Positions 31,042 to 64,000 are shown, counted from the first letter of the stretch. The stretch: DNA of 64,000 nt from Escherichia coli (GCF_044324875.1 NZ_CP172185.1); one strand, 5' to 3'. Notes: generated by a model not told the origin, from the sequence alone. Translations and numbers: made by a program.

Positions 31042-31153
31042 AGGGAGACAAAAAAAGCGCCCGCAGGAGATTTAACGGTACTTACTCCTCTTGCTGATTT
31101 CCTTATTTTTCAATAAGTAAACAAAAACAAGGGGAGCAAATTATCACAAATAA

Positions 31154-40761: not shown

Positions 40762-40860
40762 TGCGTATTCCGCTCTATTCGATCACGGATTGGCATCGAA
40801 GTCCGATCAGCGATTCGCATCCATTCGATCAACCGGGAACTTAACTTTTTCTACCGCTTT

Positions 40861-41616
40861 TTAACGCGTTTTTTCGCTGCTTTCCACTACCGGGGGATTT
40901 TTCCTCAGTGACTCTCCCTGAAGGACCACTCGGTGTGAGTTATGTACCAGTCTGTCCAGGATGGCATCTGCTGTTGTTGGGTTCTCCATCAGACCATGCC
41001 ATTTATCTACCGGGAACTGGCTTACCACTATCGTGCTGCTTTGTCCGTAACGATCCTCTATGAGCTCCAGAAGGTCATTACACTGGGCGTTACTTAACTG
41101 TTCCAGCCCCAGATCGTCCAGGATTAGAACCTGTATTTTTTGCAACTGTTTCAGATATTTCAGCCAGCTGCCATCAACACGTCCCTGAGCCAGTTGTTCC
41201 AGTAATCGCCCGGTTCTACAGTACCGGACGCTGTGTTTCTGTCGACATGCCTGTTCGCCCAGCGCATTGGCTATCCAGCTCTTGCCACATCCTGTCGGAC
41301 CGGTTATCAGCAGGTTTTTCCTGTGGGTTATGTAGTGGCCGTTCAGCAGTTCTCTCATCTGTTCAGCCCGCAGACCTCTTGAGGCCGGATAGCGCAGCCC
41401 TTCCGGTGTTGCCTGGTATTTCAGGCCGGCATTTTTTCTCAACCGTGCCACACGGCTGTTTTCCCTGCTCAGAAGCTCGTCATCAACCAGCAGCGTCAGC
41501 CTTTCCTCGAACGACAGTTCGTCGTAGGTCTGAGGCGTTTCCCGCTGCCGTATCAGGCTCCCGGCCATCGCCGGGAGTTTCAGTTGGGTCAGTTTGTTTA
41601 ACAGGTTATCACTCAT
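40861..41616 (-). CDS. istB: IS21-family helper ATPase IstB
   Basis: Start MSDNLLNKL; Walker A GPTGCGKS; 251 aa. Confidence 0.93.
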   Translation of the reverse strand: MSDNLLNKLTQLKLPAMAGSLIRQRETPQTYDELSFEERLTLLVDDELLSRENSRVARLRKNAGLKYQATPEGLRYPASRGLRAEQMRELLNGHYITHRKNLLITGPTGCGKSWIANALGEQACRQKHSVRYCRTGRLLEQLAQGRVDGSWLKYLKQLQKIQVLILDDLGLEQLSNAQCNDLLELIEDRYGQSSTIVVSQFPVDKWHGLMENPTTADAILDRLVHNSHRVVLQGESLRKNPPVVESSEKTR

Positions 41617-41632
41617 ACTGTTGTTCCTTCTG

Positions 41633-43168
41633 TCAGTGGTAGTAGCCCGGACCACGCAGGTTTTCATGCTCTGAAGCATATGCCGGATGTTGTTCGCCCT
41701 GGCGGGATAATGGAAGCTCCAGGTTCTCCCGATGGTGACGCAGCAGATTGTCGATAAAGCGTCTGTCAGGGGCGTTATAGTGCAGGGCAACGTAACAGGC
41801 CTTTTCCAGCCGTTCCGGGCCGTATTTTTTCTGAAGTGCCAGCAGCCCCAGAACTGCACGATAAGCCAGTTCCGGATGGGGTTTTGCCTTCAGCATGGAT
41901 TCAACCACCCGGCCTGTGGACGGGCCCGTACGTTTTCCCTGCTCGATCAGGCGTTCCGGTGTCCATGTCCCGTGCTGCCGGTGGCGCTCTGGCATGTGAA
42001 GCGGATTGGTTGTGTGTTTATATTCATGTGTGCTGCGCGGATGTTGCGCCACACACTGCCCCTTGTGCCAGAGCTGTACCACCGACTGCCCCGCCTTCAG
42101 TGACAGACGCTGACCGACCAGTTCGTGTGGAACGGAGTACCAGTGACGGGCATATTCAACGTGGTAGTCAGGGCCAACCTTCACAGCTTTGTATTCCGTG
42201 TATTCATAAGGTGCCAGAGGCAGCGGAGAGAGTGCTGGCGCATCCAGTATGCGGAAGCGTTCTGCACGGGTTTGATTGCCGTACCCCTTCATTGGCCGGT
42301 TATTCATGTCTGTCAGTAACTCCCTAAGGCGCGCATTCAGCGCCCTGAGCGTGTGGAAGGTTTCATTACGGATGCGGGCAAGAAGCCATCGTTCAACGAT
42401 GAGGACGCCGTTTTCTGCTTTTGGTTTATCTTTAGGTTTGCGTGGTCGGGCCGGGATGATAACCGTGCCATAGTGCTCAGCCAGTGCCTGATAACTGTCG
42501 TTGATGACAGGCTCATATCGATCGGCCTTTTTCACTGCGCTTCTGAGGTTATCGGGGATGAGCAGCTTCGGTACGCCGCCCAGGAAGGTCAGGCAACGGC
42601 TGTGGGCATTTAACCATGACATCATGTCCTGACCTTCGCACGCTTCAACGTAGGTATAGTTGGACGCCCCCATTACGGCCACGAAGATTGCCACGCGGCG
42701 TATCTCACCGGTGTCCGGATTAATAACAGGAACCGTAGGACCACAGAAGTCGATAAAAAGCTTTTCGCCGGCACGATGCTCCTGGCGCATGGAGAGACGT
42801 CGCGTTTTTTTCCACTCCCGGTAGCAACGGCAGAAGTGCGAGTATCCCATCGCTTTGTTACCCGCCTGTGCCTTGTATTCCATCCACAACAGTTGCCGCG
42901 TCACACCTGGTTTTCTCATTTCCGTATCGAAGTACAACATGTCAGGCATTACAAGCTCTGATGCAAAGGTGTCTTTGGGCGGAAAAATGAGTTTCTCCAG
43001 CGTGTCATGGGATATATCAGCAGGTAATGGCCATGACAGAGAAGAGGCTTTGAAGCGGGCAAGAACCTCAAAAACGGTTGAGGCGCTGATGTGTAACGTC
43101 AGTCCGATACAACGGTTAGTCAGCTTCTTGTCGAACTTGAGCTGAAGGATCTTAAAACAGGTTTCCAT
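41633..43168 (-). CDS. istA: IS21-family transposase IstA
   Basis: Start METCFKILQ with AGGAG SD; DDE integrase core region; 511 aa. Confidence 0.92.
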   Translation of the reverse strand: METCFKILQLKFDKKLTNRCIGLTLHISASTVFEVLARFKASSLSWPLPADISHDTLEKLIFPPKDTFASELVMPDMLYFDTEMRKPGVTRQLLWMEYKAQAGNKAMGYSHFCRCYREWKKTRRLSMRQEHRAGEKLFIDFCGPTVPVINPDTGEIRRVAIFVAVMGASNYTYVEACEGQDMMSWLNAHSRCLTFLGGVPKLLIPDNLRSAVKKADRYEPVINDSYQALAEHYGTVIIPARPRKPKDKPKAENGVLIVERWLLARIRNETFHTLRALNARLRELLTDMNNRPMKGYGNQTRAERFRILDAPALSPLPLAPYEYTEYKAVKVGPDYHVEYARHWYSVPHELVGQRLSLKAGQSVVQLWHKGQCVAQHPRSTHEYKHTTNPLHMPERHRQHGTWTPERLIEQGKRTGPSTGRVVESMLKAKPHPELAYRAVLGLLALQKKYGPERLEKACYVALHYNAPDRRFIDNLLRHHRENLELPLSRQGEQHPAYASEHENLRGPGYYH

Positions 43169-43406
43169 AGTGCTCCTGGATTTTCTCTTTCTGGACATTG
43201 ACGTCTCCACTGGTTTAAACACGGCAATGGAGACTGTGGTGAAAAGAGTTAATTCCCGGAGTGACTGGCAGGATGCCAATCAATGATCGGAAGCATGCCA
43301 AATCGTGATCGATTGTGATGCCAAACTGTGATCGGAGATGGATGCCAAATCATGATCGATTCGAATGCCAAACTGCGATCGATTCAGATGCCATTTTGCA
43401 TCAGTC

Positions 43407-56738: not shown

Positions 56739-58973
56739 ATGAGCACGAGAAAATTCAGAACCCTTATCACCGACATCGGGCTGGCAAAGCTGGCCGCAAC
56801 AACGGCGCCTGGCGGTAGACCTGTACGCCTTACGCACATGGCTGTAGGGGACGGCAATGGAGAGCTTCGTCAGCCGCAGAAAAACCAGACATCGCTTTAC
56901 AATGAGGTTTGGCGCCAGTCTGTCAACCGCGTCTTCACCGACCCGGAGAACCCGAACCGCCTCATCGCCGAACTGGTCATTCCTCCTGAAACCGGCGGAT
57001 TCTGGGTGCGTGAAATTGGTGTGTTTGATGATACAGGTACAATGATTGCAGTAGGAAATACCGCTGAAAGTTACAAGCCCACCAGAGAGGAAGGTTCAGG
57101 GCGGGCGCAGATATTCCGTGCAGTAATCACCGTCACCTCCGACGCCGTGGTGGAACTGGTCATGGACACAACAACAATTCTGCCGACCACGGACTACATT
57201 GATGAGAAAATGGCGGAACACGCACGTTCCCGTAACCACCCTGACGCGACACTGACAGAAAAAGGATTCACCCAACTGAGCAGCGCCACAAACAGCACCT
57301 CTGAAACACTGGCCGCCACACCGAAGGCCGTCAAGGCTGCATATGACCTTGCAGCCGGTAAAGCACCCGCCAGCCACACCCACCCGTGGAATCAGATAAC
57401 TGGTGTGCCATCAGCCTCGCTGACGGCAAAAGGCACCGTACAGCTGAGCAGTGCCACAAACAGTGAGTCAGAGACTGAGGCGGCCACCCCCAAAGCGGTT
57501 AAAGCCTTACACGATATGGTGACGAGCAAGTATACAGGACAGGATGCAACCACCGGACGCAAAGGCATCGTACAGCTGAGCAGCGCCACAAACAGCAATT
57601 CCGAAACACTGGCGGCCACACCGAAGGCAGTAAGTGATGCACTGAGCATGGCGTTCGTGAAGCCAACAACATCCCTGGGGGAAACAGACCTGAACACTCT
57701 GGGGCGTAAGGAAGACGCGGGAGATTATTACCAGCAGAGTGACTCAGGTGCGAGAACAGACAGAAACTATCCTGTAGAGAAGGCAGGAGAGTTACGCATC
57801 CGTGTTGGTGCATGGGGATTCTGCCAGCATGAATACACGAGCTGGGATCCGCCACGAAAATTTATCAGGACAGTTACCGGAAACTTTAACGGTAACGGCC
57901 CATGGTCAGAGTGGGTGGAGGTGACAAACACAGATGCAACAACTGGACGCAAAGGCATCGTACAGCTGAGCAGCGATACAAACAGCAATTCCGAAACGCT
58001 GGCGGCCACACCAAGAGCCGTCAAGGCTGCATATGACCTTGCAGCCGGTAAAGCACCCGCCAGCCACACCCACCCGTGGAATCAGATAACAGGTGTGCCA
58101 TCAGCCTCGCTGACGGCAAAAGGCACCGTACAGCTGAGCAGTGCCACAAACAGTGAGTCAGAGACTGAGGCCGCCACCCCCAAAGCGGTTAAAGCCTTAC
58201 ACGATATGCTGACGAGCAAGTATACAGGACAGGATGCAACCACCGGACGCAAAGGCATCGTACAGCTAAGCAGCGCCACAAACAGCAATTCCGAAACGCT
58301 GGCGGCCACACCAAAAGCTGTTAAAGCTGCGTATGACCTTGCCAACAGCAAAGCCTCGGCAGCCCACACTCATCGCTGGGCTCAGATCACAGACGCCCCT
58401 GTTTTTTCGTCTGTTGCCCGCGTCATCATGGGTAAACAAAGCATAAAAGATATTCTTGATTACTTTGGTTTAGGAGAAGGCTCGACGCTGCCAGTTGGCG
58501 TACCCGTTCCGTGGCCTTCGTCAAGACCACCTGAGGGGTGGTTACAGTGCAACGGTGCCGCATTCACGCGTACAAAATACCCAAAACTGGCGGTGGCCTA
58601 CCCTGACCTCAGGCTACCAGATTTGCGCGGGGAATTTATTCGTGGATGGGATGACCTGCGAATGATTGACAGGGGACGCTTATTGTTATCCACACAGGAA
58701 GCAACATATATTTGTACCGCCATACAGGCGTACCACGGCGTAGCGGGAGGTGCAGATATTCAGGCAGGGATTTCATTTGCATCACATGATAACGACATCA
58801 TAAACATAACCCCTGATCAACCCAGAACCGGTAACGGCATCCTGTACGGCACAAAACCAGTTGACAGATGGGCAATAGCCAGAGCCGGTAAGCTGGTGAG
58901 TAATGAAAAAGACAGATGGATAGCGATCAGACCGCGCAATATCGCTTTTAATTATATTGTGAGGGCAGTTTAA
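56739..58973 (+). CDS. Tail fibre protein (P2 gpH-like) with internal repeat array
   Basis: 744 aa; repeated TGRKGIVQLSSATNSNSETLAATPKAVKAAYDLA units; C-terminal receptor-binding region. Confidence 0.9.
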   Translation: MSTRKFRTLITDIGLAKLAATTAPGGRPVRLTHMAVGDGNGELRQPQKNQTSLYNEVWRQSVNRVFTDPENPNRLIAELVIPPETGGFWVREIGVFDDTGTMIAVGNTAESYKPTREEGSGRAQIFRAVITVTSDAVVELVMDTTTILPTTDYIDEKMAEHARSRNHPDATLTEKGFTQLSSATNSTSETLAATPKAVKAAYDLAAGKAPASHTHPWNQITGVPSASLTAKGTVQLSSATNSESETEAATPKAVKALHDMVTSKYTGQDATTGRKGIVQLSSATNSNSETLAATPKAVSDALSMAFVKPTTSLGETDLNTLGRKEDAGDYYQQSDSGARTDRNYPVEKAGELRIRVGAWGFCQHEYTSWDPPRKFIRTVTGNFNGNGPWSEWVEVTNTDATTGRKGIVQLSSDTNSNSETLAATPRAVKAAYDLAAGKAPASHTHPWNQITGVPSASLTAKGTVQLSSATNSESETEAATPKAVKALHDMLTSKYTGQDATTGRKGIVQLSSATNSNSETLAATPKAVKAAYDLANSKASAAHTHRWAQITDAPVFSSVARVIMGKQSIKDILDYFGLGEGSTLPVGVPVPWPSSRPPEGWLQCNGAAFTRTKYPKLAVAYPDLRLPDLRGEFIRGWDDLRMIDRGRLLLSTQEATYICTAIQAYHGVAGGADIQAGISFASHDNDIINITPDQPRTGNGILYGTKPVDRWAIARAGKLVSNEKDRWIAIRPRNIAFNYIVRAV
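57328..57625 (+). repeat. Copy 1 of ~300-bp near-identical direct repeat inside tail-fibre gene
   Basis: Near-identical to 58018-58315 (offset 690 bp) with five single-base differences noted in the aligned core. Confidence 0.8.
58018..58315 (+). repeat. Copy 2 of ~300-bp direct repeat inside tail-fibre gene
   Basis: See copy 1. Confidence 0.8.
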
Positions 58974-60154: not shown

Positions 60155-63100
60155 CTAATCTCTGTCACGGAAACTACCGACTGTCTGGCGGATACGGCGT
60201 TCCATTTCCGCACGGACGGCATCACCCACCATTTTTGCCAGTTCGCGCGGGTTTTGCGTGTGAACATCATGCAGGTGAATATGCAGTTCGCCAGTTAATC
60301 CCCATGGTGCCGGCTCACTCTGGCGCGGTCGGGGCGATGCGGGGGATATGGGCTGGCGCACAGCCTCAACCACCGGACGGGATGTTGCCGCCATCACTGG
60401 TGTCATTAGCGGGGAGAACGTCGGCATGACATCGTGAGTCATAACCGGTTTGATCACCGGCGGAACCACTGGCGTAATATTACCGGACAGTACCGGACGG
60501 ACGACCGGAGGAATAACCGGCACATTATTCACGGACACCACCGGCTTCACGACCGGCGACACGTTCGCCGTGGTGGATATCAGCGGCGAAACACTGACAG
60601 GCGGTGGCGCTGGCAGCGGTGGCAACGAAGGCACACTGACCGACGGCACCTGCGGCAGTCTGACAGGTGGCTCACTGACACTACCCGGTAACAGGGAAGC
60701 TGCTCGGTTAAAGCGTTCCTCCTTCCACTCACCACGAACGGCCAGCGCTTCCGGCAGGTTTTTAAAGATAATATCGCCGGGACCAGCGCGTTTTTTCGCC
60801 TGTTTCGCCTCATCCAGCAGACCACCGGTGTTATCGACGATTTTGTTCAGGCGGCGCATAGTGCCGGTATTCTCCCCCGTCAGGGGTGGTTGCCCCCCTT
60901 TGGGTTTTTCGCCGTCTTTTTTATCCTCGTCCTTTTTCGGCGGATTAATGACGTTAACATCCGCCAGAAGCATGGCAGCTTTCTCGTTCAGCAACTCCTT
61001 CTGTTTTAGTTCTTCCGCCTTTTTCCGGGCGCGCTCAACCGCCGACGGAATCAGCCCGAGTTTTTCCAGCACCCGGGTTAATGAGTCAATCAGCAGCGTA
61101 ACCGGACCGGTCACCAGATTGCTGATAAACTCCCCTACCTTCTGCCCGAACGTACGCCCGGCTTCCGTGCACTTGTCCAGCTCATCCTTTGTTGTGCTTA
61201 CCGGCGCGAACAAATCCACGAACCACTGCCACACACGCCCGATTGTCTGCCCGACATACTCAAACAGCGGTCCCAGTGGTGCCACAGCCTCGCGCAGTGG
61301 CGTAAGCCCCTGCCACAGGCCGGACAAGAACCCGCCCACGACAGCCTTCAGCTGGTCCCAGTGCCGCCAGATAAGCACTGCCGCACCGACCAGTGTCGCC
61401 ACCACAAGGCCCACCGGACTTAACAGAAAACCCAGCGCCCCGCCAAGTGCGCCCACCGCACCACTCACCATCCCCCACAGTGCGGGCAGACCTGACAGTC
61501 TGAGCGCCAGTATTCCGATACCGCGCCCCAGTGAAATCAGTGCGCCGCCAGGTGAAGTGAACGCAGCCAGCAGACCACCACGCAGCGCGCCAAGTCCCGC
61601 CTGCACACCACGAAGCCGCCCCGCAACTACGCCCAGCAGTGCAGCAAACCGTCCGGCACCGGAGGTGATACCGACAAACAGCACGCGCCAGCCACCGATA
61701 CCGCCCAGCGGACCACCGAGTACGCCGCGCAGCTGCGTCAGTAACGGCAGCGCACGACCGAGGCCGGATGTGCCGGTCAGCAGGGCAAACCCAAGACGCA
61801 GTTTTGCCAGCGGCCCCATCAACACACCAGTGGCAAGTGACAGCGCCCCCATGGCCGCAACCGCAGCCAGCAGTACACCACCGGCAATCAGCAGTTGTTT
61901 TGTCAGTTCAGGGTGCGCCTGAGCCAGCGCGGTGACTTTCGCAATAACCCGGGTGAACGACTGCGTGACAGAACGCAGCGGCCCGTCAACGAGGTCAGCG
62001 ACACGGATACGCAGTCCTTCCCATGCGCTGTTCAGTGATTTCAGGTCACCGTCCAGGTTATCAGCCATAACACGGGCAGTGTGATTAAGTTCCCCGGTGG
62101 CCAGTTCAATCTCCTGCGTAAGACGGGGAAGATTATTTTCCCCCGCCGCAGTGACAAGATTCATCAGGGAAACATAGGACTCCTGCCCGGCAATAGCCCT
62201 GAAAAAGGAGACCTGCGCGGCATTACCGTATTTTCGGGTGGCCTGGTACAGCTCATTCAGGATATTTTCCATCCGGCGCATGTTCCCGTAAGCATCCTGC
62301 GTCTCCACGCCAAGCTCTTTCAGTGCCATTGCAGCGGCCTTCGGCGGATCAACCAGACGTGACAGACTGGCACGCAGCGCCGTACCTGCATCACTTCCAC
62401 GGATCCCCACACTGCCAAGGACACCCGTCATGGCTGCCGCCTGTTCAAGGGACAGGCCAAGTGAAGCTGCAACCGGACCCGTGTACTTCATGGTTTCACC
62501 CAGTGAACGGAGATCCGTATTGGTTCGTGTGAAGGTGGCGGCCAGCGTGTCACCCACGCGATCCATCTGGTCAGCGGACAGACCAAACTGTGTGAGGATA
62601 TTCGAACTGATATCGGCAGTCTGTCCCAGGTCCATCCCTGCAGCCATTGCCAGATCAAGCACGCCGGGTAGCGCCGCCTGTATGGCCTGTGGTGTGAAGC
62701 CGGCCATGGCAAGGAACGCCTGACCGCTGGCAGCATCACCGGCGGTAAACTGCGTTTCAGAGCCCAGCTTAATGGCCTGTTCGCGCAGCGCCTTAAACTG
62801 CGGACTGTTTTTGTCAATACGGGTCAGCGCCTGGACGCGTGACATCTCCTTACCAAAACTGACCGCCGGTTGCAGGAAACGTCCGGCCGCATAGCCGCCT
62901 GCCGCCGCCGTACCAACCGCCGTAAGTCCGACCGTTTTAAGTTTTCCCGCCGTCTCCTGAGCACGGGAATATTGCTGGCGTGCCTGCGTGACACGTGCCA
63001 GCGCCTGCCGTTCGCGTTCCAGCTGGTCGTTGTATTGCTGTGTTCGCCGTATGGCCTGTTGAATGGTGTTGTCACTGCCGGAAAGCGCAATACCGTGGCG

Positions 63101-63466
63101 CCGCAGCTCACCACCCAGTTCGCGCATTCGCTGAACTTCACGCGCACGGACCTCATTGAGACGCTCAAGTTTGAGGCTCAAATCGTTCATCAGCTTTTTC
63201 TGTTTGTCAGACAGCACGGTTCCGGCGCGCTGAATTTGCTGAAGTGCGCTTAACTGGCGTTGTGCCCGGGCAATGCCGTTTCCGGCCTTGTTTGCAGCCT
63301 CGCGGGCGCGATCAAATGAACGGGCGTGGCGTTCCAGGTTTTTGATCGCACCCTGCGTTCTCTGTATGGAGTCGCCAAGCTGGCCCATCATGCGACGGGC
63401 GTTTTCGGTGGGACGGGTCAGCCTGTCAACAGCGCTGAAGGCGACCCGTATATCAAGCGTTTTCAT
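60155..63466 (-). CDS. Tail tape measure protein (P2 gpT-like), with C-terminal Pro/Val-rich repeats
   Basis: About 1100 aa; start set at ATG (MKTLDIRV) that overlaps the stop of the predicted E' frameshift extension; upstream GTG alternative at 63502. Confidence 0.88.
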   Translation of the reverse strand: MKTLDIRVAFSAVDRLTRPTENARRMMGQLGDSIQRTQGAIKNLERHARSFDRAREAANKAGNGIARAQRQLSALQQIQRAGTVLSDKQKKLMNDLSLKLERLNEVRAREVQRMRELGGELRRHGIALSGSDNTIQQAIRRTQQYNDQLERERQALARVTQARQQYSRAQETAGKLKTVGLTAVGTAAAGGYAAGRFLQPAVSFGKEMSRVQALTRIDKNSPQFKALREQAIKLGSETQFTAGDAASGQAFLAMAGFTPQAIQAALPGVLDLAMAAGMDLGQTADISSNILTQFGLSADQMDRVGDTLAATFTRTNTDLRSLGETMKYTGPVAASLGLSLEQAAAMTGVLGSVGIRGSDAGTALRASLSRLVDPPKAAAMALKELGVETQDAYGNMRRMENILNELYQATRKYGNAAQVSFFRAIAGQESYVSLMNLVTAAGENNLPRLTQEIELATGELNHTARVMADNLDGDLKSLNSAWEGLRIRVADLVDGPLRSVTQSFTRVIAKVTALAQAHPELTKQLLIAGGVLLAAVAAMGALSLATGVLMGPLAKLRLGFALLTGTSGLGRALPLLTQLRGVLGGPLGGIGGWRVLFVGITSGAGRFAALLGVVAGRLRGVQAGLGALRGGLLAAFTSPGGALISLGRGIGILALRLSGLPALWGMVSGAVGALGGALGFLLSPVGLVVATLVGAAVLIWRHWDQLKAVVGGFLSGLWQGLTPLREAVAPLGPLFEYVGQTIGRVWQWFVDLFAPVSTTKDELDKCTEAGRTFGQKVGEFISNLVTGPVTLLIDSLTRVLEKLGLIPSAVERARKKAEELKQKELLNEKAAMLLADVNVINPPKKDEDKKDGEKPKGGQPPLTGENTGTMRRLNKIVDNTGGLLDEAKQAKKRAGPGDIIFKNLPEALAVRGEWKEERFNRAASLLPGSVSEPPVRLPQVPSVSVPSLPPLPAPPPVSVSPLISTTANVSPVVKPVVSVNNVPVIPPVVRPVLSGNITPVVPPVIKPVMTHDVMPTFSPLMTPVMAATSRPVVEAVRQPISPASPRPRQSEPAPWGLTGELHIHLHDVHTQNPRELAKMVGDAVRAEMERRIRQTVGSFRDRD

Positions 63467-63616
63467 GCTCTGCGTTCCCGCTGCGAAGGGCCGCCCGCTC
63501 ACGCCAGGCGACCACCTCGCCGGGATCCATCAGGAAGATTTCAGCGGGAGACCAGTTGAAAATAACGGCGATATCCGCCACAAAGTCTTCAATATGCTCA
63601 AAGGGCACGACGGTTA

Positions 63617-63979
63617 TCAGCCTGCCGTCGCCGCCACGCTCTTCCCGCCAGAGTCCTGACCGGCCAAAAAATTAACCGCCACCCCGCACAGCTGAATAAA
63701 ATCAGCGGACCCCATGCGCTTAAGCAGAACCTCGTCCAGTCGCGGCGAAGTGACGCGCGGGAGTAACTCAAACATCGCGTCCGTTTTCATGTTCAGCACG
63801 TCAAGCAGTGACAGCCCGCGCAGTGAACCGGCCTGCTGTACAGCAGGCGTGATTTCCACATACGTGATTTTTTTGTTACCGAGCACAAGGGGCGTTTTCA
63901 GCGTCACGCCGCGCTCACTGGTCACGTCCGCCGCATCAGCACCGTCAGTAACAGGGGCAACAACCGGATTTTCTTTCAT
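63617..63979 (-). CDS. Tail tube-associated protein E-like (zero-frame product)
   Basis: 120 aa; immediately upstream of tape measure; contains slippery heptamer near 3' end. Confidence 0.72.
   Translation of the reverse strand: MKENPVVAPVTDGADAADVTSERGVTLKTPLVLGNKKITYVEITPAVQQAGSLRGLSLLDVLNMKTDAMFELLPRVTSPRLDEVLLKRMGSADFIQLCGVAVNFLAGQDSGGKSVAATAG
63665..63671 (-). other. Candidate programmed -1 frameshift site (T TTT TTG) for E/E+E'
   Basis: Minus-strand AAT TTT TTG in E frame; -1 frame stays open ~63 codons and stops (TGA) overlapping tape-measure ATG. Confidence 0.55.
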
Positions 63980-64000
63980 GCATAAAACCTCAAATCAGGG

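What the first reader, a model, noticed from the sequence alone, without database searches (positions are those of the whole stretch)
63452..63979. Conserved programmed -1 frameshift signal for tail proteins E and E+E'
The E reading frame contains the slippery heptamer T TTT TTG near its 3' end. The -1 frame then stays open for about 63 codons and terminates with a TGA that overlaps the tape-measure ATG at 63466. This is the arrangement known for the P2 FETUD operon and for lambda G/GT. It supports the tape-measure start assignment and indicates that this part of the tail module was functional at least until recently.
Basis: partly seen in the sequence, partly recalled or inferred. Interest (0 to 1): 0.4.

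Follow-up and report, generated by a model that had tools for sequence, protein, structure and literature searches.

The report
P2-type tail chaperone frameshift site
This is the well-known programmed -1 ribosomal frameshift that lets P2-like phages make two tail-assembly chaperones (E and E+E') from one gene start; here it sits intact in an E. coli prophage, so it is real but ordinary.

Summary
On the minus strand, gene E (63979..63617, 120 aa) carries an in-frame T TTT TTG at 63671..63665, 15 codons before its stop. The -1 frame is closed by a TAA immediately 5' of the heptamer. It then stays open for 70 further codons, not about 63, to a TGA at 63455..63453. That TGA lies 11 nt inside the tape-measure gene (ATG 63466), not on the ATG.

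The -1 extension encodes Pfam PF06528 'Phage P2 GpE' (E = 4e-12). The reconstructed 175-aa fusion aligns with P2 E+E' over the whole P2 protein (36% identity, E = 1e-27).

All 76 distinct related viral loci and 12 reference phages have an in-frame X XXY YYZ heptamer at the homologous site. It is mostly TTTTTTG, sometimes AAATTTT or CCCTTTC.

Across 70 relatives, the bias towards synonymous change switches from the E frame to the -1 frame exactly at the heptamer. None has an ATG between the slip site and the E' domain.

The geometry alone is not rare in this window, so the case rests on homology and comparison.

Verdict: an unannotated but typical member of the P2 E/E+E' frameshift class. RefSeq calls E' a separate 51-aa gene. 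Low novelty, low interest.

The parts
63617..63979 (-). Gene E: tail assembly chaperone, the zero-frame product of 120 aa.
   Evidence: ORF. It matches phrog_103 'tail protein' at 4e-31. BLASTP against P2 gpE gives 35% identity, E = 2e-14. PGAP annotates the identical CDS as 'phage tail protein'.
63988..63991 (-). GAGG Shine-Dalgarno, 8 nt upstream of the E ATG.
   Evidence: Read directly from the sequence.
63665..63671 (-). Slippery heptamer T TTT TTG (X XXY YYZ in the E frame; codons F104 and L105).
   Evidence: It is identical to the P2 site annotated in NC_001895. A heptamer is conserved at this position in 76 of 76 distinct related loci.
63672..63674 (-). TAA stop in the -1 frame, immediately 5' of the heptamer. 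The -1 frame can therefore only be entered at or after the slip site.
   Evidence: translation of the -1 frame; 'open upstream 0'.
63453..63665 (-). E' extension: 70 codons in the -1 frame plus TGA at 63455-63453. With E residues 1-105 it gives a 175-aa E+E' fusion.
   Evidence: It matches phrog_1756 at 6e-33. tblastn finds it in 304 phage records, including P2 E+E'. The synonymous-substitution bias is in this frame from the heptamer onward.
63474..63581 (-). Pfam PF06528 'Phage P2 GpE' domain (fusion residues 134-169), encoded in the -1 frame.
   Evidence: E = 4e-12, 45.8 bits against a cut-off of 23.
63606..63608 (-). GTG that PGAP uses as the start of a separate 51-aa 'GpE family phage tail protein'. 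It is probably not a real initiation site.
   Evidence: One search gives the annotation. A start-type codon is present in this column in only 34 of 70 distinct relatives, none has an ATG between the heptamer and the domain, and only a weak SD-like GCAGG lies upstream.
60155..63466 (-). Tape-measure gene (gpT homologue), ATG 63466, 1103 aa. Its first 14 nt overlap the end of E'.
   Evidence: It matches PF10145 at 6e-53. It is collinear end to end with the P88 tape measure at 55% identity, with two insertions.

Best explanation
This is the E/E+E' tail-assembly-chaperone gene pair of a P2-like (Peduoviridae) prophage of E. coli, expressed through a programmed -1 ribosomal frameshift.

**Proposed mechanism**
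1. Most ribosomes translate E (120 aa) and stop at 63617.
2. A minority pause with tRNA-Phe in the P site and tRNA-Leu in the A site on U UUU UUG. Both tRNAs slip back one base onto UUU UUU.
3. Those ribosomes then read GGC CGG ... in the -1 frame for 70 more codons. The product is a 175-aa fusion, E+E', with the junction ...AVNFL-GRSGLW...
4. The fusion stops 14 nt inside the tape-measure gene.

**Proposed role.** By analogy with P2 E/E+E' and lambda G/GT, the shared E part binds the tape-measure protein. The E' extension, present in a fixed low ratio, links the complex to the tail-tube subunit during tail assembly.

**What is shown and what is inferred.** Shown here: the sequence anatomy, the homology, the conservation of the slip site, and the switch of coding constraint at the heptamer. 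Inferred: that frameshifting actually occurs in this prophage, its efficiency, and the chaperone roles.
For: - **Anatomy.** The heptamer is in frame, a -1 stop lies just before it, and 70 codons are open after it.
- **Homology.**
  - The -1 frame encodes PF06528 at E = 4e-12 and phrog_1756 at 6e-33.
  - The fusion aligns with P2 E+E' over the whole P2 protein at 36% identity, E = 1e-27.
  - The slip-site Phe is invariant in the 11-phage alignment.
- **Check on the method.** Applied to P2, the same reconstruction gives 91 and 142 aa. These are the published sizes (PMC3091744). The P2 record marks the frameshift at the same heptamer.
- **Gene order.** Sheath, tube, E, E', tape measure in 99-100% identical E. 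coli genomes.
- **Conservation of the slip site.**
  - 12 reference phages from at least 10 Peduoviridae genera have a heptamer at the homologous site.
  - So do 80 IMG/VR loci, 76 of them distinct. Among those 76: TTTTTTG 45, AAATTTT only 14, CCCTTTC 14, TTTTTTA 2, TTTTTTC 1.
- **Coding constraint.** The synonymous fraction of single-base codon differences is given below.
  - Upstream of the heptamer: 0.67 in the E frame, 0.08 in the -1 frame.
  - In the 15 overlap codons right after it: 0.67 in the -1 frame, 0.27 in the E frame.
  - After the E stop: 0.62 in the -1 frame.
- **Conserved motif.** G-x-W...ER-G-GDG lies in the -1 frame upstream of the annotated GTG.
- **No independent start.** None of 70 relatives has an ATG between the heptamer and the E' domain.
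Against: - There is no direct evidence of frameshifting in this prophage.
- The geometry alone is not statistically unusual in this window.
- No stimulatory RNA structure was found 3' of the site (z = -0.3 to -0.5), and no conserved SD-like element lies 5' of it. P2 is also reported to lack a downstream structure (PMC3091744), so this does not count against the mechanism.
- The E part does not reach any Pfam or NCBIfam threshold. Its homology to P2 gpE rests on BLASTP and PHROGs.
- The pairwise substitution counts are not phylogenetically independent.
Confidence: 0.9

Rival explanations
1. E' is an independent small gene. It would be translated from the GTG at 63608 as a free 51-aa 'GpE family' protein, as RefSeq/PGAP and several phage records annotate it, with no frameshift.
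For: PGAP annotates exactly this CDS. That 51-aa sequence is on record from at least 999 contigs. The GTG lies 9 nt after the E stop, so re-initiation is conceivable.
Against: - A start-type codon is present in that column in only 34 of 70 distinct relatives, and no relative has an ATG there.
- The sequence upstream of the GTG has only a weak SD-like element.
- The -1 frame shows coding constraint and a conserved W...ERGGDG motif already between the heptamer and that GTG.
- Two Klebsiella phage records could not call any E' ORF at all.
- The P2 record in RefSeq annotates E+E' as a -1 frameshift fusion and an essential tail protein.
Confidence: 0.04
2. The same fusion arises by transcriptional slippage. 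RNA polymerase would add one extra U in the T6 run, rather than the ribosome slipping.
For: The site contains a run of six T. An inserted U would put downstream codons in the same -1 frame. Nothing computed here can separate the two mechanisms for this one sequence.
Against: - A run of six is shorter than the runs usually associated with efficient transcriptional slippage (my own knowledge, not tested here).
- About 28 of 76 distinct relatives have only AAATTTT or CCCTTTC at the site. These break the homopolymer but keep the X XXY YYZ pattern needed for tandem tRNA re-pairing.
- The register with the E frame is kept everywhere. Only a ribosomal mechanism requires that.
Confidence: 0.04
3. It is an artefact or a decayed gene. 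On this view there is a single E-E' gene, broken by a one-base sequencing error or a mutation in the T run, or the match is a chance heptamer next to a chance open frame.
For: Homopolymer runs are prone to error. The heptamer plus open frame geometry is not rare in the window.
Against: - The two-frame arrangement recurs in 29 complete E. coli genomes at 99% identity or more, in 12 reference phages and in 76 distinct viral contigs.
- The E stop lies within a narrow range (25-73 nt) 3' of the heptamer in all of them.
- The short E tail after the heptamer is retained throughout.
- The Pfam hit in the -1 frame (4e-12) excludes chance.
Confidence: 0.01

Closest known systems
Bacteriophage P2 genes E and E+E' (FETUD tail operon; Christie et al. 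2002, as cited in PMC3091744; RefSeq NC_001895 P2p25/P2p26)
   Same: - The slippery heptamer TTTTTTG is identical and sits in the same register near the 3' end of E.
- The shift is -1.
- The extension carries the PF06528 domain.
- E' ends a few nucleotides inside the tape-measure gene T (8 nt in P2, 14 nt here).
- The genes lie between the tube gene and the tape-measure gene.
- No downstream RNA structure is evident.
- The fusions align along the whole P2 protein at 36% identity.
   Different: - E is longer here (120 against 91 aa), with an extra N-terminal stretch of about 18 aa. It misses the Pfam PF10109 threshold that P2 E passes.
- The E tail after the slip site is 15 codons, against 6 in P2.
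- E' has a lineage-specific insertion of about 10 aa carrying a conserved W...ERGGDG motif.
- The fusion is 175 aa, against 142 aa in P2.
- D and ogr lie upstream of the sheath gene on the opposite strand instead of following U.
E/E' loci of Xuanwuvirus P88, Gemsvirus 500465-2 and Escherichia phage Chuche (the closest sequenced phages, about 77% nucleotide identity)
   Same: - The geometry is the same: heptamer 52 nt before the E stop, 72 -1 codons, and TGA inside CTTGAT of the tape-measure start MKTLDI.
- The fusion is 73% identical to that of P88.
   Different: - These phages have two overlapping heptamers, A AAT TTT TTG. Some relatives keep only A AAT TTT.
- The window has TAA TTTTTTG, so only the T TTT TTG site is usable and the -1 frame is closed right before it.
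- The window's tape measure is 168 aa longer than that of P88.
Phage lambda G/GT and the general conserved tail-chaperone frameshift of long-tailed dsDNA phages (Xu, Hendrix and Duda 2004, as cited in PMC3091744 and PMC5009743)
   Same: - It follows the same logic. Two overlapping ORFs lie between the major tail gene and the tape-measure gene.
- A low-level -1 shift near the end of the first ORF gives two products that share an N-terminus.
- Lambda assembly needs these in a set ratio (PMC5009743).
   Different: - No sequence homology to lambda G or T was tested or is claimed.
- The lambda slip site differs.
- Lambda is a siphovirus, whereas this is a contractile-tail (P2-type) module.

Membership tests
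P2-type E/E+E' frameshifted tail assembly chaperone (Peduoviridae) | The gene pair lies between the tail tube gene (FII) and the tape-measure gene (T). | tested here: met
   The tape-measure gene is directly downstream in the window (PF10145). The tube and sheath genes are directly upstream in E. coli genomes that are 99-100% identical over this region. The window itself ends 21 nt upstream of the E ATG.
P2-type E/E+E' frameshifted tail assembly chaperone (Peduoviridae) | An in-frame X XXY YYZ slippery heptamer (TTTTTTG in P2) lies near the 3' end of E. | tested here: met
   T TTT TTG lies at 63671..63665, in register, 15 codons before the E stop. It is identical to the annotated P2 site.
P2-type E/E+E' frameshifted tail assembly chaperone (Peduoviridae) | The -1 frame is open from the heptamer to the start of T and encodes the GpE' domain (Pfam PF06528). 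| tested here: met
   There are 70 open codons ending 14 nt inside T. PF06528 scores E = 4e-12, above its cut-off.
P2-type E/E+E' frameshifted tail assembly chaperone (Peduoviridae) | The N-terminal (E) part is homologous to P2 gpE. | tested here: met
   BLASTP against P2 gpE gives 35% identity over 88 aa, E = 2e-14. It matches phrog_103 at 4e-31.
P2-type E/E+E' frameshifted tail assembly chaperone (Peduoviridae) | The E part matches the Pfam model that P2 gpE matches (PF10109, Phage_TAC_7). | tested here: not met
   There is no hit, even at E up to 10, whereas P2 E scores 1.4e-12 in the same call. This reflects divergence of this lineage. It is a property of the curated model, not a defining biological feature.
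P2-type E/E+E' frameshifted tail assembly chaperone (Peduoviridae) | The slip site is conserved in homologues at the homologous position. | tested here: met
   12 of 12 reference phages and 76 of 76 distinct IMG/VR loci have an in-frame heptamer there. 45 of the 76 have TTTTTTG.
P2-type E/E+E' frameshifted tail assembly chaperone (Peduoviridae) | Protein-coding constraint passes from the E frame to the -1 frame at the slip site. | tested here: met
   The synonymous fraction is 0.67 (E frame) against 0.08 (-1) upstream of the heptamer. It is 0.27 against 0.67 in the 15 codons after it (70 distinct sequences; the pairs are not independent).
P2-type E/E+E' frameshifted tail assembly chaperone (Peduoviridae) | Two proteins with a common N-terminus are actually made, and both are needed for tail assembly. 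| not testable with these tools
   This needs protein analysis or genetics. It is recorded for P2 only through the RefSeq annotation and the citation in PMC3091744. The primary paper, PMC135442, is not held.
Lambda G/GT-type tail chaperone frameshift (general class of Xu et al. 2004) | Two overlapping ORFs between the major tail gene and the tape-measure gene are joined by a -1 shift near the end of the first. | tested here: met
   The arrangement is the same.
Lambda G/GT-type tail chaperone frameshift (general class of Xu et al. 2004) | Sequence or structural homology to lambda gpG and the T domain. | not tested
   No comparison with the lambda proteins was run. A profile search of the PDB found no solved relative. 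The claim made here is 'works like', not membership.

The most novel reading that the evidence does not exclude
The lineage that includes this prophage (the P88, Gemsvirus and Klebsiella Reipivirus relatives) carries an extra linker of about 10 aa at the start of E', with a strongly conserved G-x-W...ER-G-GDG motif. It also shows turnover of the slip site itself (TTTTTTG, AAATTTT, CCCTTTC) at one fixed position. The motif, which lies in the dual-coding stretch, might be a distinct functional element. It could be a nascent-peptide or mRNA feature that tunes frameshift efficiency in place of an RNA structure, or an extra binding site. In the window, the TAA in the -1 frame abutting the heptamer might also contribute to the signal.
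Probability: 0.08. Interest if true: 0.4.

Novelty: new member of a known kind. Interest (0 to 1): 0.13.

Why it matters
The main value is for annotation.

- In this prophage lineage, present in at least 29 complete E. coli genomes, RefSeq splits the locus into a 'phage tail protein' and a separate 51-aa 'GpE family' protein.
- The 175-aa frameshift product is absent from a collection of about 15 billion proteins.
- Recognising the frameshift gives the correct gene model and confirms the tape-measure start.
- Together with the full-length tape-measure gene, it argues that the tail-assembly core of the prophage is intact.

The comparative series of slip-site variants is a small but clean natural experiment. 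It favours ribosomal slippage over transcriptional slippage. No new biology is implied.

Tried and rejected
- **RNA stimulator 3' of the heptamer.** Folding the 65 and 105 nt downstream gave energies no better than shuffles (z = -0.29 and -0.46). Rfam gave no match at E up to 1.
- **SD-like stimulator 5' of the heptamer.** The window has GGGGTG 8 nt upstream, and P2-type sequences have AAGGTG. The columns are not conserved across 70 relatives and are explained by codons, so I dropped the idea.
- **Geometry-only statistics.** These do not discriminate, so I do not use them as evidence.
- **Family and structure libraries.** Pfam and NCBIfam gave nothing for E. A PDB profile search found no solved relative.
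- **Primary literature.** The primary P2 paper (PMC135442) is not held. One paper search failed on a two-letter term. P2 facts therefore come from the RefSeq record and from PMC3091744 and PMC5009743.
- **Rivals considered and rejected.** These were independent initiation at GTG 63608, transcriptional slippage, and a sequencing error or pseudogene (see the rival explanations).
- **Is the tape-measure gene decayed?** PGAP flags it as incomplete in LH50-c and NRZ14408. In the window the ORF is continuous and collinear with the P88 tape measure from first to last residue, so I treat the flag as an annotation artefact.

Full report
**1. What is in the sequence**

The genes in 60155-64000 lie on the minus strand.
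- An ORF of 120 codons starts at ATG 63979, with GAGG 8 nt upstream, and stops at 63619-63617.
- Fifteen codons before that stop the sequence reads AAT TTT TTG (N103 F104 L105). The heptamer T TTT TTG at 63671..63665 is therefore in the X XXY YYZ register required for tandem -1 slippage.
- In the -1 frame, a TAA at 63674-63672 directly precedes the heptamer.
- From the heptamer on, the -1 frame is open for 72 codons: the two re-read Phe codons plus 70 new ones. It ends at TGA 63455-63453.
- The tape-measure gene starts at ATG 63466 in the same frame as E. E' therefore ends 14 nt inside it.

- The extension is 70 codons, not about 63.
- The terminating TGA is not the one in ATGA at the tape-measure start, which is in the other frame. 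It is the one in CTTGAT, 11 nt further on.

**2. Is it more than chance?**

The geometry alone does not show that.
- Among 245 stop-to-stop ORFs of at least 80 codons in the window, ten have an in-frame heptamer near their end that opens a -1 extension of at least 40 codons.
- About a fifth of random positions have at least 72 open codons.

The evidence that counts is comparative.

**3. Homology**

- The -1 extension matches Pfam PF06528 'Phage P2 GpE' (E = 4e-12, 45.8 bits against a cut-off of 23) and phrog_1756 (6e-33).
- tblastn finds the extension in 304 phage records. One is phage P2, where the hit lies under the feature annotated 'E+E''.
- The E part matches phrog_103 (4e-31) and P2 gpE by BLASTP (35% identity, E = 2e-14).
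- The E part does not reach Pfam PF10109, which P2 gpE hits, nor any NCBIfam model.
- The reconstructed fusion has E residues 1-105 followed by GRSGLW...ENA and is 175 aa long. It aligns with P2 E+E' along the whole P2 protein (36% identity, E = 1e-27).
- In an alignment of eleven fusions from different Peduoviridae genera, the slip-site Phe and a string of E' residues are invariant.
- As a control, the same reconstruction applied to P2 gives 91 and 142 aa. These are the sizes reported in the literature (PMC3091744). The heptamer I located in P2 abuts the 'site of -1 translational frameshift' marked in NC_001895.

**4. Genomic context**

- The 601 bases around the site are 100% identical to E. 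coli LH50-c and at least 99% identical in 29 of 5426 complete E. coli genomes.
- In those genomes the order is sheath, tube, E, E', tape measure, then a gpU-like tail protein. D and ogr lie on the other strand upstream of the sheath gene.
- The element is a complete P2-like prophage with integrase, Cox, replication endonuclease, portal, terminase, capsid, lysis, baseplate and fibre genes. It occupies the window from about 31000 to beyond 64000.
- The closest sequenced phages are about 77% identical in nucleotides: Chuche, Gemsvirus 500465-2 and Xuanwuvirus P88.
- PGAP annotates E' as an independent 51-aa 'GpE family phage tail protein' starting at GTG 63608.
- The exact 175-aa fusion is absent from a collection of about 15 billion proteins. 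E is on record from 198 contigs and the 51-aa E' from at least 999 contigs.

**5. Conservation of the signal**

- In twelve reference phages an in-frame heptamer sits at the homologous place.
  - TTTTTTG occurs in P2, P88, Chuche, 3LV2017, SEN5, Milagro, vB_YenM_201.16, phiE12-2 and PHB48.
  - TTTTTTT occurs in Smp131, TTTTTTC in vB_YenM_42.18 and C CCT TTC in ST16-OXA48phi5.4.
- A scan of IMG/VR returned 80 loci, 76 of them distinct. Every one has an in-frame X XXY YYZ heptamer at that position.

| Heptamer at the site | Distinct loci (of 76) |
|---|---|
| TTTTTTG (with or without an overlapping second heptamer) | 45 |
| A AAT TTT only | 14 |
| C CCT TTC | 14 |
| TTTTTTA | 2 |
| TTTTTTC | 1 |

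The variants that break the T run but keep the X XXY YYZ pattern and the register argue for ribosomal slippage rather than transcriptional slippage.

**6. Where does -1 frame coding begin?**

I used 70 distinct relatives with the same geometry. I counted codon pairs that differ by one base and asked whether the change is synonymous in each frame.

| Region | Synonymous fraction, E frame | Synonymous fraction, -1 frame |
|---|---|---|
| 44 codons upstream of the heptamer | 0.67 | 0.08 |
| 15 codons between the heptamer and the E stop | 0.27 | 0.67 |
| After the E stop | 0.16 | 0.62 |

- Coding constraint thus passes to the -1 frame at the heptamer itself, upstream of the GTG that PGAP uses.
- In line with this, the motif G-x-W...ER-G-GDG is conserved in the -1 frame in that stretch across very different nucleotide sequences.
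- No relative has an ATG between the heptamer and the E' domain. A start-type codon occurs in the PGAP start column in only 34 of 70.
- Caveat: the pair counts are not phylogenetically independent.

**7. Stimulators**

- The 65 and 105 nt downstream of the heptamer fold no better than shuffled sequence (z = -0.29 and -0.46).
- Rfam has no match.
- No SD-like element is conserved upstream.

This agrees with what is reported for P2 and its Burkholderia relatives (PMC3091744).

**8. Mechanism and role**

- The best-supported explanation is a low-efficiency tandem -1 slip of tRNA-Phe and tRNA-Leu on U UUU UUG. It yields E as the major product and E+E' as the minor product.
- By analogy with lambda G/GT, the shared part binds the tape measure and the extension binds the tail-tube subunit (PMC5009743). 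In the P2 record both E and E+E' are annotated as essential tail proteins.
- For this prophage these functional steps are inferred, not shown.

**9. Tape measure and module integrity**

- The ATG at 63466 and the N-terminus MKTLDIRVAFSA are shared with P88.
- The 1103-aa ORF aligns with the 935-aa P88 protein from first to last residue (55% identity). It has two insertions, one Gly/Ala/Leu-rich and one Pro/Val-rich.
- PGAP flags this gene as 'incomplete, missing C-terminus' in LH50-c and NRZ14408. That is probably an artefact of the divergent insertions.
Elsewhere in the prophage an IS21-family element is inserted.

**10. Verdict**

- The finding is correct and its interpretation is supported.
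- It is an unannotated but typical instance of a mechanism that has been known for P2-like phages since 2002.
- Novelty is limited to this lineage's details: a longer E, a 10-aa ERGGDG linker in E', a -1 stop abutting the slip site, and slip-site turnover among relatives.
- Interest is low.

Noticed in passing
window 40762-43400: An IS21-family element (istA 548 aa at 41633-43279 and istB 332 aa at 40861-41859, both on the minus strand; ISSso4-like, 99.8% identical to copies in many E. coli chromosomes and plasmids) is inserted in the early region of the prophage. It interrupts a small hypothetical gene that is intact in strain NRZ14408. That strain instead carries an ISEc12 about 1.4 kb further on.
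   Followed up: partly
window 60155-63466 (minus strand): The tape-measure protein is 1103 aa, against 935 aa in P88. The difference comes from two insertions: a Gly/Ala/Leu-rich hydrophobic segment (about residues 510-600) and a Pro/Val-rich segment (about residues 930-1020). PGAP marks the near-identical gene as an incomplete pseudogene in LH50-c and NRZ14408, although the ORF is continuous and collinear with P88 at both ends. If tail length scales with tape-measure length, this prophage would make a longer tail.
   Followed up: partly
window 57243-58392: The tail-fibre gene contains internal direct repeats. There are four copies of a unit of about 160 nt, with spacings of 300, 390 and 300 nt. 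There is also a 300-nt pair 690 nt apart at 94% identity (cross-matches also seen).
   Followed up: no
L017, L019-L036 and L061-L075 (IMG/VR relatives); L005: Relatives have replaced TTTTTTG with A AAT TTT, shifted one codon 5', or with C CCT TTC at the same position. P88-type sequences carry two overlapping heptamers, A AAT TTT TTG. This shows evolutionary turnover of the slip site at a fixed location.
   Followed up: yes
window about 31000-64000 and beyond: The second half of the window is a complete P2-like prophage, with its integrase near 31150. In this lineage D and ogr lie upstream of the sheath gene on the opposite strand, unlike the P2 order FI-FII-E-T-U-D-ogr. The prophage sits next to copA in LH50-c but next to serS in NRZ14408, so the same phage occupies different sites, or there are multiple copies per genome.
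   Followed up: no
window 10057 (plus strand): Another in-frame TTTTTTG, in a stop-to-stop ORF of 84 codons, opens a 398-codon -1 frame. It is most likely a spurious short frame overlapping a real long gene. I did not examine it.
   Followed up: no
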